Shown here: positions 6,039 through 38,488 of the stretch, one piece after another | Layout: each line of letters starts with the position of its first letter | How positions within the stretch are numbered: position 1 is the first letter of the stretch | From: Eledone cirrhosa | Lineage: Eukaryota | DNA length: 64,000 nt | NCBI GenBank assembly: GCA_964016885.1 | Contig: OZ024742.1 | Coordinates: 44,020,001 to 44,084,000 of the forward strand | Direction: 5' to 3' | The notes under the pieces: generated by a model | Told to the model about the DNA's origin: nothing | The model's input: the letters and a program-made list of their open reading frames with translations, nothing else | The model's database searches: none | Program-made: the position numbers and the translations under genes

Positions 6039-6243
6039 CCAACTCACATTGCTGATTTCACTGATGTAGAATCTATCCAGACATCTGATGACAAAGGTGT
6101 ATTACAGCTGAAGATAGCCGGTGCTACGGAACCTTTGAATTTGACATGTGTGTCTGTGAGCGGCGCTGAAGATATGGCAGATCTTATTGATGGCTATTGT
6201 CGTTTGGTTAACAACACACACACTTCTTTGTGGAAACGGAAAA
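6039..6243 (+). CDS. PTK2: FAK exon, end of FERM domain (F3 lobe)
   Basis: ttttgtAG|...|GTaagt. Translates PTHIADFTDVESIQTSDDKGVLQLKIAGATEPLNLTCVSVSGAEDMADLIDGYCRLVNNTHTSLWKRK, matching the FAK FERM motifs PTHLADF, LQLKIAGAPEPL and MADLIDGYCRLVN. Phase 0 to 1. Confidence 0.96.
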
Positions 6244-10342: not shown

Positions 10343-10381
10343 CCAACAATTTCAGATGTTCTTCCGCCTCCGAAAGTGAAG
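10343..10381 (+). CDS. PTK2: Candidate FAK linker micro-exon (39 nt, symmetric phase 1-1; alternative acceptor at 10356)
   Basis: Long pyrimidine tract at 10160-10340, then tttgaAG|ccaacaat...gaaagtgaag|GTttgt. Reads TNNFRCSSASESE in the frame that continues to the next exons. No homology support. Confidence 0.5.
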
Positions 10382-16897: not shown

Positions 16898-16954
16898 GTT
16901 TGTCAGATTACGCTGAAATTGTAGAAGAGGAAGGTGACTACAGTGTCCCAGATG
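16898..16954 (+). CDS. PTK2: FAK exon with the autophosphorylation site (Y397 equivalent)
   Basis: ctttcAG|...|GTgagt. Reads GLSDYAEIVEEEGDYSVPD, matching FAK DDYAEIIDEEDTYTMP (Y397/Y407). Phase 1-1. Confidence 0.95.
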
Positions 16955-18696
16955 GTGAGTTAAACCCTTCATTTTACAAGAAACTTCATCTAATACATAT
17001 ATGTGCATATATATATGTATATATAGTGTTGGCTAATACATATACTACATTATACAATATGATCACTTACTGTTTTTTCTTAGTGAAACAGGTAAATGTA
17101 CAACAGATAAACTTATATTTATCATGGATAAATATAAGTTATGTTATGTCATAGACCCATTCAGTCACGAATGACCTACAAAGTTCTCTTCTGAGGCATA
17201 ATCCTGGGCAAGGTGTGTTTGTGGAAGACCAGATGTTGTCCAAGGCAATGGCTGATACAGCTTGGCACCAGTAACGTTGCAACTCAGTTCTAAGGTGTAT
17301 TGCTCAAGGACACAATGCACTACTTGATCTGGGAGTCAAACTCACAATCTTACGATTGTGAATTCAATGCTCTAACCACTAAGCCACCTGCCTTCACTCA
17401 ATTATATTATCTAATTGATAAATATATAGCTCTTCTACTGTTTATAGAGCTTTCATACCACTTGTTAATTAATACATAATACATACATACACACACACAC
17501 ACATACATATATATATATATGTATACACATACATATACACATTTACATACATATTCATAAACATATATGCAAACACATACACATTCACATACTTACACAT
17601 TCATATGCATACACACACATACACACTCACACATAATAATCTCTGCCTGTATGTTGGCCACATGGTTTCTATAATTCGGTGTGTCTATATAATAACACTG
17701 TTCTCCAAATTGTGACAGCATGTATGCATATCTAATTTTCGGAAGCATCCCAAAACATGTATGTACATACCTATATATGGAATTGGTCTATTCTACATGG
17801 AAATTCTATTTCCATGCCTTGTTGCTCATTTAACATATATCTAATATTTTCAGAGCTAGCTCTTTCATTACTGTATTTCAAATAGAATACACTCTATTTC
17901 AATTAATTAAGAATTTCCAGCAATTTACTAAAATTGTTTATTATTTCATTACTAAGATAGTAACTTAATGTATGGTGCTTATATAAAATTATGTTAAAAG
18001 ATTTTAATTTAAATAAAAACCTTTTAAAATGGGTGGGTTTGTTTCATAGAATCAGAAGAGTTGGTATCAAAATCTTAATCTTAAATTATTACTAAAACTT
18101 TTAGAACATGTAATCAGCAGAATGTCAGAATGGTTTAGGCCAGCAGTTTAGGGGTGGTATTGGTGAGGGCAGTTGAATACGTGATTGACACCACTGCTTA
18201 GCTGGTACTTTATTTTACCAACCCTTTGAGGATGAAAGGCAAAATTAACCTTGGCAGGATTTGAACTGAGAACATAAAGAGCCAGAACAAATGCTGCAAA
18301 ACACTTTGTCCCAACCTACTAATCATTGTGTCAATCTACCTCTCTGAACTGCTGACAGAATTCCATGCAGTATTAAGTTCGGTATCTTTACATTCTGAGT
18401 TCATATCTGATGTGGTTTGACTTTACCTTACATCTTTCCAGGATCGATAAAATAGCTACGTTATTAATATTGAGAGGATGGGAACAGTTTATTATATTGA
18501 GGTCAGTATAGTTGACTATTCATCATCAAACCATACCTTATTTTAAGTATGGTGTGTATATATATAGATCCCAAGTGAAATCAGGAGTGACGACAGTTGA
18601 AAAGGTACTCAATACATTAGTAGTGTAAACATCAGTATTTAATATAGAAATGGCTTCTACAGGACTATAAATAACAACTCGCTATGTCACTCAGCA

Positions 18697-20224: not shown

Positions 20225-20389
20225 CCACATATACACCTCCATATATCTGTGTAAGTTTCAAGTGTTTTCTATAAAGTAAAAAATATATATACGTGTTCAG
20301 AGCTTTATCATTGTCATGTCTTTGTGTTGAAAACCGAACTGAACCTCTTTCCACTCTGTCTTCAACTGGATTCCTACTTGATATCTCAG

Positions 20390-20431
20390 GTGAACATCTA
20401 TGCGCTTCTCGCCGGAAGAAAGATGCTAAGC
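20390..20431 (+). CDS. PTK2: Candidate alternative cassette exon (42 nt, phase 1-1) between the Y397 exon and the kinase domain
   Basis: atatctcAG|gtgaacatctatgcgcttctcgccggaagaaagatgctaagc|GTgagt. Open in the correct frame (GEHLCASRRKKDAK), in a non-repetitive, locally GC-richer island. Confidence 0.5.
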
Positions 20432-21262
20432 GTGAGTTAATCGACTAAGCATGGTTTTCGTGCTTTTTGTTCTCCAACAACTTGGAGTTCTTTAAGCACT
20501 GTCACCAAAATTGGAATTTACATTTGCCACCACACTTCTTAGTATTCAGTTTAGCATGTTTCCTTTTTTTTTTTTTTTTTTTAAGCATCTCCAATTAAAT
20601 AATAATAATAATAGAAGCTACTAATCTAGTCACAGACCAACATGCTCTTTTGAGGCTTACAATCAGATATTTGCGAAAAAAAAAAAAAAAAATACACAGA
20701 GAAAAATGATAGTTTTAAAGAATATTGCATGAATTTGGAATTGTTTGAAACCAAATATATCAGGAAAAAAAGGCAATAATAAAATTAATCCAGAAAGTTC
20801 TTGACAATAAATTGCTGTTATGAGAATGTGAAAATAGCATGTATAACTCAAAACACTTCCTACTAATATTAACTGCACATAAAATAACTCTGCACATTGT
20901 GACAAATAAAAGACATAAAGAGAGAAAAAACTATTTGATTGAGCATTTGACTAGTAGATTAAATTTTTAATTTATTTTATATAACTGTGTATCTGAACAT
21001 GTGTGTGTAGATTACTGTGGAAGTGATCAGTGTGTGTGGAGGTCAGTGTCTATGTGGATCTGTGTGTGTGGATTACTGTGGAGGTAATCAGTGTGTGTGT
21101 GCATGCACATGTGTGCAGAAGTCTTGCATCACAGCTGAGAGTAAAATTAACATGTGTCTTTGATTTATGAAGATATGACTTAGCTATGACACATTCAGAA
21201 ATCATAGAAGTCCTTAATTTTCTTTTACACAAAAGCTGCCAAACCAAAGGCAACAAGTTAAC

Positions 21263-28539: not shown

Positions 28540-28637
28540 CCAAAAACTATGAAATAGAACGAGAATCTATTCAGCTTGAAGAAATCTTGGGCGAAGGGCA
28601 ATTTGGTGATGTATATCGAGGCTTATTCTATGATAAG
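28540..28637 (+). CDS. PTK2: FAK kinase exon, Gly-rich loop
   Basis: ttgcAG|...|GTaagt. AKNYEIERESIQLEEILGEGQFGDVYRGLFYDK. Phase 1 to 0. Confidence 0.97.
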
Positions 28638-37825: not shown

Positions 37826-38488
37826 AGTGAGGAATTCCAGATACAAGTAGGAGTACATCAAGATTCGGTCCTCAGCTCGCTCTTGTTCATTATAGTCCTC
37901 CAAGCCATAACAGGAGTTTAAGACTGGCTGTCCATGGGAACTTCTCTATGATGACAATCTGGTTCTTATAGCAGAATCAGTAGAGGAGCTAGAGAATAAA
38001 TTCTGGCTATGGAAACAGCAGTTGGAAGCAAGAGGACTGAGAGTGAACCTAGCTAAGACAAAAGTGTTGATGAGTAGAAAAGAGGACAAAACTCTGATTC
38101 CGTCAGGGAAATGGCCATGTTCGATATGCAGAAAAGGAACTGGCATAAATTCTATAAAATGTACACAATGCAGATCCTGGGGACACAGGAGATGTAGTGG
38201 GATAGCAGGCAAACTAACAGGTAGGGAGAAATACGTATGCAGTAGATGTACAGGGAAATTAGACAGTAGAAGTCGCATTGATAGACACATTTTTCAAATG
38301 CAGGCGGGTGCTATAGAAGTGGTGGATAGCTTCCGGTACCTAGATCAGATTAGCATGGGGGGGGGGGGGGTCCGAGGCCATAGTATCTAGAATGACGGGT
38401 TGGAAGAAGTTTAGGGAGCTGCTTCCTCTGCTGACGAAGAAGGGTTTCTCCCTGCGTATGAAAGGCCGGTTATATGATGCCTGTATGT
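37826..38488 (+). mobile_element. RTE-clade LINE RT fragment (decayed) with a C4HC3 zinc finger
   Basis: QVGVHQDSVLSSLLFIIVL...CPWELLYDDNL (decayed YADD)...GLRVNLAKTKVL...IEVVDSFRYL...WKKFRELLPLL...KGRLYDAC. Confidence 0.9.

What the first reader, a model, noticed from the sequence alone, without database searches (positions are those of the whole stretch)
20390..20431. Candidate 14-aa basic cassette exon at the position of the vertebrate neuronal FAK 'box 7'
Seen: a 42-nt segment bounded by AG and GTGAGT, symmetric phase 1-1 and stop-free in the FAK frame (GEHLCASRRKKDAK). It lies in the intron between the DYAEI exon and the first kinase exon, in unique sequence with GCATG motifs downstream (about 20448 and 20554). 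The flanking exons also join correctly without it (D-A-KNYEI), so it would be optional. Known: vertebrate brain FAK isoforms insert short boxes 6 and 7 on either side of Y397 and alter autophosphorylation. Inference: an independently evolved, probably neural, cassette at the same regulatory position in an invertebrate, adding a basic RRKK patch beside the acidic Y397 linker.
Basis: partly seen in the sequence, partly recalled or inferred. Interest (0 to 1): 0.75.

Follow-up and report, generated by a model that had tools for sequence, protein, structure and literature searches.

The report
Mollusc-wide basic optional FAK exon
This is a conserved 42-base exon of the octopus focal adhesion kinase gene, included or skipped in database gene models across molluscs, that adds a positively charged stretch at the same spot where vertebrate brains add their own dissimilar insert, and it likely tunes the kinase's self-activation in a similar way.

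Summary
The exon is there as described (20390-20431, AG/GTGAGT, phase 1-1, GEHLCASRRKKDAK), in the single FAK gene of an octopod. It is not new to databases: gene models of Octopus bimaculoides, O. vulgaris/sinensis and Sepia pharaonis hold both included and skipped forms. A polybasic insert of 10-15 codons stands at the same junction in 26 of 34 mollusc genera sampled, so it is mollusc-wide, not octopus-specific. Exon, splice sites and the downstream GCATG are conserved in contigs of 4 of 4 runs from relatives. The junction is the one used by vertebrate box 7, but the sequences are unlike. No insert was seen in 173 arthropod, 6 other lophotrochozoan or 17 invertebrate deuterostome records. 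Anthozoans have a third, different insert there (8 of 17 records). Best reading: repeated independent gain at a hotspot; inclusion likely loosens the linker and raises autophosphorylation, with the basic patch adding membrane or phospho-control. Neural specificity and function are untested, and no junction reads were obtained. I found no paper describing it; the scan had noted only other FAK exons. Same-position convergence of alternative exons is a known general pattern.

The parts
20390..20431 (+). 42-nt phase 1-1 cassette exon of FAK/PTK2; adds 14 codons (G-EHLCASRRKKDAK-P replaces A)
   Evidence: Sequence; GENLCVSRRKKDTKP in O. bimaculoides/vulgaris/sinensis isoforms and GENLRASRRKKNIKP in Sepia; conserved in 4 of 4 runs laid
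20303..20389 (+). 3' splice region: 87-nt AG-free zone, pyrimidine-rich tract, CAG acceptor; no TGC within 100 nt, no CTRAY match
   Evidence: third longest AG-free zone of 17 acceptors, median 36; 20355-20389 unchanged
20432..20467 (+). GTGAGT donor and conserved downstream intron block
   Evidence: 20432-20458 invariant in 4 of 4 runs; no gap to 20467
20449..20453 (+). GCATG, candidate Rbfox element (proximal)
   Evidence: unchanged in 4 of 4 runs; binding not tested
20554..20558 (+). GCATG, candidate Rbfox element (distal)
   Evidence: the motif is present in the loose ends of the 2 runs whose contigs reach it, with changed neighbours (table 7); binding not tested
16898..16954 (+). Upstream 57-nt exon carrying the autophosphorylation motif DYAEI (Y397 equivalent) and the Y407 equivalent; phase 1-1
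28540..28637 (+). First kinase-domain exon (KNYEI...GEGQFGDV)

Best explanation
This is an optional exon of molluscan FAK that inserts a 14-residue basic peptide between the autophosphorylation segment and the kinase domain; it likely arose independently of vertebrate box 7, and inclusion is predicted to loosen autoinhibition and raise autophosphorylation. Shown: the exon, its frame, both isoforms in gene models of relatives, its spread over three mollusc classes and its position. Inferred step 1: inclusion is tissue-regulated, probably through the downstream GCATG elements (neural about 55%, muscle or other about 45%). Inferred step 2: the distance from the autophosphorylated tyrosine to the first kinase-exon tyrosine grows from 18 to 32 residues (25 with box 7), which would let the tyrosine leave its FERM/N-lobe sandwich and reach its own active site in cis, as reported for box 7. 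Inferred step 3: charge is what is conserved, so the basic cluster likely adds something a spacer would not, most likely electrostatic contact with PIP2-rich membrane or with the acidic EEEGD segment, possibly reversed by a basophilic Ser/Thr kinase.
For: Both forms in Octopus (12 included, 7 skipped of 19 records) and Sepia (1 and 2 of 3). Insert in 26 of 34 named mollusc genera: 2 of 2 cephalopod, 12 of 17 gastropod, 12 of 15 bivalve; the 8 without had 1-2 records each. Net charge is +2 to +8 in all 28 distinct genus-level inserts listed. The Sepia peptide aligns to 24 gastropod/bivalve inserts better than 999 of 1000 shuffles, the Octopus one better than 946 of 1000; three box 7 peptides do not (266-483 of 1000 shuffles reach them). 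Same junction as box 7 in lungfish, bat and hagfish records and in the alignment to solved FAK. No insert in 173 arthropod, 6 other lophotrochozoan and 17 invertebrate deuterostome records. Flanks and motifs conserved. Box 7 allows cis autophosphorylation (PMC10376711, PMC1570463, passages). Y397 lies sandwiched between FERM F1 and the N-lobe, and PIP2 binding through basic patches exposes it (PMC7072507, passages).
Against: No junction reads and no tissue data for this or any species; splicing rests on gene models of relatives. The contigs laid are unspliced and only guessed to be RNA. No UGC or CTRAY near the acceptor, unlike eMIC exons. All 3 exon differences from relatives change residues and none is silent, so the residues outside RRKK are loosely held. 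The [RK]xx[ST] site seen at the junction in 24 of 24 gastropod/bivalve genera is absent in cephalopods (Pro there), and the KKDT site of other octopuses is KKDA here. Outgroup sampling is thin outside arthropods (one of at least 9 amphioxus isoforms; single records for most annelids and nemerteans), and short exons are often missed by annotation. The predicted structure gives the whole linker pLDDT under 50 and says nothing on position. The cis mechanism is borrowed from a 7-residue non-basic insert.
Confidence: 0.55

Rival explanations
1. One ancestral optional exon at this junction predates the cnidarian-bilaterian split; box 7, the mollusc cassette and the anthozoan inserts are its diverged descendants, and other lineages lost it.
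For: Inserts at the identical junction in vertebrates including hagfish, in molluscs and in anthozoans. Anthozoan inserts also end in basic residues. One coral insert scores near the tail against mollusc inserts (58 of 1000 shuffles).
Against: No sequence likeness for box 7 or for the other 3 of 4 anthozoan inserts; lengths run from 7 to 25; at least four losses are needed (arthropods, non-mollusc lophotrochozoans, ambulacrarians, amphioxus/tunicates); same-position convergence of neural exons is common in bilaterians (10.64898/2026.09.05.749416, section 10).
Confidence: 0.15
2. The insert is mainly a targeting or phospho-switch motif (nuclear localisation signal, or PKA/PKC site) and does not change autophosphorylation much.
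For: Charge is conserved while length varies from 10 to 15 codons. Inclusion turns the junction Ala into Ser/Thr behind basic residues in 24 of 24 gastropod/bivalve genera, with [RK][RK]x[ST] in 20 of 24; S-x?-[RK] occurs in 22 of 28 inserts, cephalopods included. Motif assignments are from recalled consensus patterns.
Against: Four caenogastropod genera have only +2 to +3 and no basic run, a poor nuclear signal; cephalopods lack the junction Ser/Thr; this species lacks the KKDT threonine.
Confidence: 0.2
3. The exon is regulated in muscle or another non-neural tissue, so it parallels box 7 in position only.
For: Rbfox acts in brain, heart and muscle (listing abstracts of 10.1101/840272 and PMC8742874). 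No UGC at the acceptor. Box 7 itself is also the main form in testis (PMC1570463 passage).
Against: Long AG-free zone as in eMIC exons; same-position convergence is most prominent for neural exons. 0 of 10 unnamed squid/cuttlefish-like and 0 of 6 other mollusc-like Logan ORFs include it, which suggests restricted inclusion but names no tissue.
Confidence: 0.3
4. A chance exon-like stretch or splicing noise.
For: Nine segments of the intron pass a loose exon filter; no junction reads were obtained.
Against: Annotated in 26 genera across three classes; exon and flanks conserved without gaps while neighbouring intron is gapped or unalignable.
Confidence: 0.02

Closest known systems
Annotated molluscan FAK1 isoforms, e.g. 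Octopus bimaculoides XP_052826190.1 (X1, included) versus XP_052826191.1 (X2, skipped); Sepia pharaonis CAE1317510.1
   Same: The orthologous exon: same junction and length, 11 of 14 residues identical to other Octopus.
   Different: Automated gene models only; three residue changes here (N to H, V to A, T to A read from the other Octopus). I found no paper describing the exon.
Vertebrate FAK/PTK2 box 7 (exon 16; Corsi et al. 2006, PMC1570463)
   Same: Optional, frame-preserving, same junction between the Y397/Y407 segment and the kinase N-lobe.
   Different: 7 residues and not basic, against 10-15 and polybasic; no sequence likeness; box 7 is shown to be brain- and testis-enriched and to raise autophosphorylation, which is untested here. 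Corsi et al. found none of the vertebrate boxes in non-vertebrates.
Type I convergent alternative exons (bioRxiv 10.64898/2026.09.05.749416)
   Same: Different exons arising at the same protein position in orthologous genes of distant lineages.
   Different: That class is defined by neural specificity, not tested here. PTK2/FAK is not named in the main text; its supplements, which include O. bimaculoides data, were not available.
eMIC/SRRM4-dependent neural microexons (PMC8797185)
   Same: Short, symmetric, long AG-exclusion zone.
   Different: No UGC within 100 nt of the acceptor, no CTRAY branch motif; 42 nt is at the long end.

Membership tests
FAK/PTK2 gene | FERM-linker(DYAEI)-tyrosine kinase exons matching FAK | tested here: met
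   single FAK-level match in the genome
Conserved cassette exon | Canonical splice sites, symmetric phase, open frame | tested here: met
Conserved cassette exon | Included and skipped isoforms exist | tested here: met
   In gene models of relatives; not shown by reads for this species
Conserved cassette exon | Exon and flanking intron conserved in related species | tested here: met
   4 of 4 runs
Conserved cassette exon | Junction reads in this species | tested here: inconclusive
   No RNA holder listed for this organism; contigs laid were unspliced
Vertebrate FAK box 7 | Position between the Y397 exon and the first kinase exon | tested here: met
Vertebrate FAK box 7 | 7-residue KSYGIDE-like sequence | tested here: not met
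   14 basic residues; box 7 peptides score like shuffles against mollusc inserts
Vertebrate FAK box 7 | Continuous presence in intervening lineages (common descent) | tested here: inconclusive
   0 of 173, 0 of 6 and 0 of 17 records, but thin isoform sampling outside arthropods
Vertebrate FAK box 7 | Brain-enriched inclusion | not testable with these tools
   Runs are coded and carry no tissue
Vertebrate FAK box 7 | Raises autophosphorylation, allows reaction in cis | not testable with these tools
   Needs biochemistry; model uninformative
eMIC/SRRM4-type microexon | Long AG-exclusion zone | tested here: met
   87 nt, third of 17 acceptors, median 36; two apparently constitutive acceptors are longer
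eMIC/SRRM4-type microexon | UGC close to the 3' splice site and strong CUAAY branch point | tested here: not met
   None within 100 nt
Rbfox-activated exon | Conserved (U)GCAUG downstream of the exon | tested here: met
   Two GCATG, conserved in 4 of 4 and 2 of 2 runs that reach them; both lack the leading U
Rbfox-activated exon | Dependence on Rbfox binding | not testable with these tools
   Needs minigene or knockdown

The most novel reading that the evidence does not exclude
The FAK linker-kinase junction is a splicing hotspot used at least three times in animals (vertebrates, molluscs, anthozoans). In molluscs a neural polybasic cassette, kept since the cephalopod-gastropod-bivalve split, builds a self-activating, membrane-seeking FAK, and together with skipping of the Y397 exon it gives molluscs a three-state switch: no autophosphorylation site, standard, and hyper-activatable.
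Probability: 0.3. Interest if true: 0.62.

Novelty: new variant of a known kind. Interest (0 to 1): 0.42.

Why it matters
Linker inserts beside Y397 have been treated as a vertebrate invention. A mollusc-wide and an anthozoan insert at the same junction give natural variants with very different sequences (7 neutral, 10-15 basic, 11-25 hydrophobic-basic residues). They make a standing question directly testable: is it linker length or sequence that switches FAK to autophosphorylation in cis? If the cassette is neural, it is a clear case of convergent tuning of one kinase in vertebrate and cephalopod nervous systems. The exon itself is already in automated annotation and same-position convergence is a described pattern, which limits the surprise.

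Tried and rejected
Sequencing runs: no RNA holder listed for this organism; this is no evidence either way. Four small-share runs of other organisms gave unspliced contigs and no joints, so junction counts remain open. AlphaFold2 on an included isoform: linker 398-475 under pLDDT 50, no information on where the insert sits; no fold search run. The 50% representative search gave no non-mollusc protein with the basic cassette among the 31 of 139 new hits in which the linker could be read. Origin by duplication of the Y397 exon: the two donors share GTGAGTTAA but the exons look unlike by eye; not pursued. The KDAK/DAK echo of the skip junction is rejected as chance (KDTK and KNIK in relatives). 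Leading Gly as homology evidence is rejected: it follows from the G at exon position +1. In one search the box 7 and anthozoan peptides were cut one residue off at an end; this does not change the result. Papers not held: Toutant 2002 and the 2019 eMIC paper (DOI recalled). Literature searches showed no description of a mollusc or cnidarian FAK linker exon; (microexon + octopus + PTK2) returned 0; for most hits I saw only the listing. Earlier scan findings: none near this place; three on other FAK exons in other genomes, which did not bear on this one.

Full report
Observation. The window holds the middle of a FAK/PTK2 gene on the + strand; a kinase exon matches Octopus FAK records at 100% and other exons differ at scattered residues, so this is an octopod not identical to those records. 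It is the only FAK-level match in the genome. The segment 20390-20431 is 42 nt, bounded by CAG and GTGAGT, phase 1-1. Inclusion gives DYSVPD-GEHLCASRRKKDAKP-KNYEI and skipping gives DYSVPD-A-KNYEI; the linker reads open from the FERM exon to the kinase exon with it. GCATG starts at 20449 and 20554. The pattern alone is not rare: 9 segments of the intron pass a loose exon filter, and two GCATG in 130 nt have P about 0.03.

Conservation at DNA level. The run search listed 17 runs: 3 that hold the whole stretch and 14 guessed-RNA runs of three other organisms with a small share; none is on record as RNA of this organism. I laid 4 of those 14. Each gave one unspliced contig over the exon. From 20345 to 20467 there is no gap, both splice sites are unchanged and 20432-20458, with the first GCATG, is invariant; outside this block three contigs carry 10-12 gaps. 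The second GCATG is kept in the 2 contigs that reach it. The exon differs at 3 places in all 4 runs, each changing a residue (H/N, A/V, A/T), none in RRKK. No joint was seen, so these data show conservation, not splicing. Junction counts remain open.

It is already annotated, and it is mollusc-wide. Octopus bimaculoides, vulgaris and sinensis records include GENLCVSRRKKDTKP in 12 of 19 and skip it in 7; Sepia pharaonis includes GENLRASRRKKNIKP in 1 of 3. An insert of 10-15 codons at the same junction occurs in 12 of 17 gastropod and 12 of 15 bivalve genera; the 8 genera without it had 1-2 records each. Examples: Haliotis GAHNSRGSKRKKT, Biomphalaria GKPKKRSVRRKS, Mya GRRRKGRKKKS, scallops GQYGSRRKKKKS. 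Net charge is +2 to +8 in all 28 listed. The Sepia peptide matches the 24 gastropod/bivalve inserts better than 999 of 1000 shuffles and the Octopus one better than 946 of 1000, which favours one molluscan origin. In gastropods and bivalves inclusion turns the junction Ala into Ser/Thr behind basic residues (24 of 24 genera); cephalopods have Pro there. Of 16 unnamed full-length Logan ORFs (10 squid/cuttlefish-like, 6 other mollusc-like) none includes it: a weak hint that inclusion is minor or restricted, with no tissue named.

Relation to box 7. Lungfish, bat and hagfish records carry a 7-residue insert at the same junction (4 of 22 vertebrate records have an insert), and the alignment to solved FAK places the gap there, between residues 411 and 412 by my count from Y397. 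Box 7 peptides score like shuffles against the mollusc set. No insert was seen in 173 arthropod or arthropod-like records, 6 other lophotrochozoan records (Owenia, Lamellibrachia, Tubulanus, Lineus, Lingula) or 17 invertebrate deuterostome records (13 Apostichopus, 2 Saccoglossus, 1 Branchiostoma, 1 Ciona). Most of these are cluster representatives, one search used a skipped-form query and one an included-form query, and sampling outside arthropods is thin. Anthozoans have a further optional insert at this junction in 8 of 17 records: 11-13 residues in Nematostella and Actinia, 23-25 in Porites and Desmophyllum; whether these are cassettes or shifted splice sites was not tested. Three gains are simpler than one gain and four or more losses; I put independence from box 7 at about 75%.

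Regulation. The acceptor has an 87-nt AG-free zone (third of 17, median 36), one feature of eMIC-dependent neural exons (PMC8797185, passage), but no TGC or CTRAY within 100 nt, so I do not file it there. Conserved downstream GCATG fits Rbfox activation (position rule recalled); Rbfox acts in brain, heart and muscle (listing abstracts). Neural-enriched inclusion is therefore about 55%.

Mechanism. In autoinhibited FAK the Y397 segment is sandwiched between FERM F1 and the kinase N-lobe, and PIP2 binding through basic patches exposes it (PMC7072507, passages; further basic PIP2 sites proposed in PMC4505859, passages). Boxes 6 and 7 raise autophosphorylation and box 7 allows it in cis (PMC10376711 and PMC1570463, passages; the primary paper was not held). 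The mollusc cassette lengthens the same tether from 18 to 32 residues. I infer that it works like box 7, and that the conserved charge adds membrane or acidic-linker contact, perhaps under Ser/Thr kinase control. None of this was tested; the structure model leaves the linker disordered. Rivals: one ancestral exon (0.15), mainly a targeting or phospho motif (0.2), non-neural regulation (0.3, compatible with the rest), noise (0.02).

What is known. Corsi et al. 2006 found none of the vertebrate boxes outside vertebrates (PMC1570463, sections 10 and 12 read). A 2026 preprint covering 20 bilaterians, O. bimaculoides among them, reports that neural exons often arise at the same protein position in orthologous genes (section 10 read); it does not name PTK2 or FAK in the main text, and its supplements, which I could not see, may list this event. 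Mouse Ptk2 microexons are under functional study (PMC12868881, passages). Nine literature searches showed no description of the mollusc or anthozoan insert; subscription journals are mostly not covered.

Verdict. A real, old, already annotated but apparently undescribed cassette; an analogue, not a member, of box 7. New variant of a known kind; interest 0.42.

Noticed in passing
window 16898-16954 and orthologues (P0009, P0013, P0020, P0021, P0025, P0045, P0046, P0202, P0207 and others): The 57-nt exon with the autophosphorylation tyrosine is itself phase 1-1 and is missing from 16 gastropod/bivalve gene models in 7 genera and one Logan ORF, in one case (P0207) with the basic cassette kept; 0 of 32 cephalopod records lack it. 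If real, molluscs make a FAK without its Src docking site.
   Followed up: partly
P0198, P0199, P0522, P0523, P0184, P0186, P0191, P0120: Sea anemones (11-13 residues, shared PV-SIWY-basic core) and stony corals (23-25 residues) have their own optional inserts at the box 7 junction.
   Followed up: partly
P0163, P0164, P0166, P0170, P0173 versus P0169, P0174, P0175: The spider Argiope has an optional 12-residue insert just before DYAEI, the side where vertebrates put box 6.
   Followed up: no
window 10343-10381: A second symmetric small linker exon (39 nt, NNFRCSSASESE); absent from an O. vulgaris isoform (P0128), so probably also optional.
   Followed up: partly
window 6040-6243: This FERM exon lacks 4 codons (LSAT) in frame relative to O. 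bimaculoides and O. sinensis; Sepia is also longer here. Lineage-specific deletion or assembly feature, not checked by reads.
   Followed up: partly
P0041; P0099: Longer versions at the same junction: Crassostrea gigas cassette extended by 5 residues, Conger box 7 extended by 21; possibly alternative splice sites or model errors.
   Followed up: no
window 16955-16963 and 20432-20440: The donors of the Y397 exon and of the cassette share 9 bases (GTGAGTTAA).
   Followed up: no
window 37911-38387 (+): Intronic open frame of about 159 codons that resembles, from recall, the end of a non-LTR retrotransposon reverse transcriptase followed by a Cys-rich finger.
   Followed up: no
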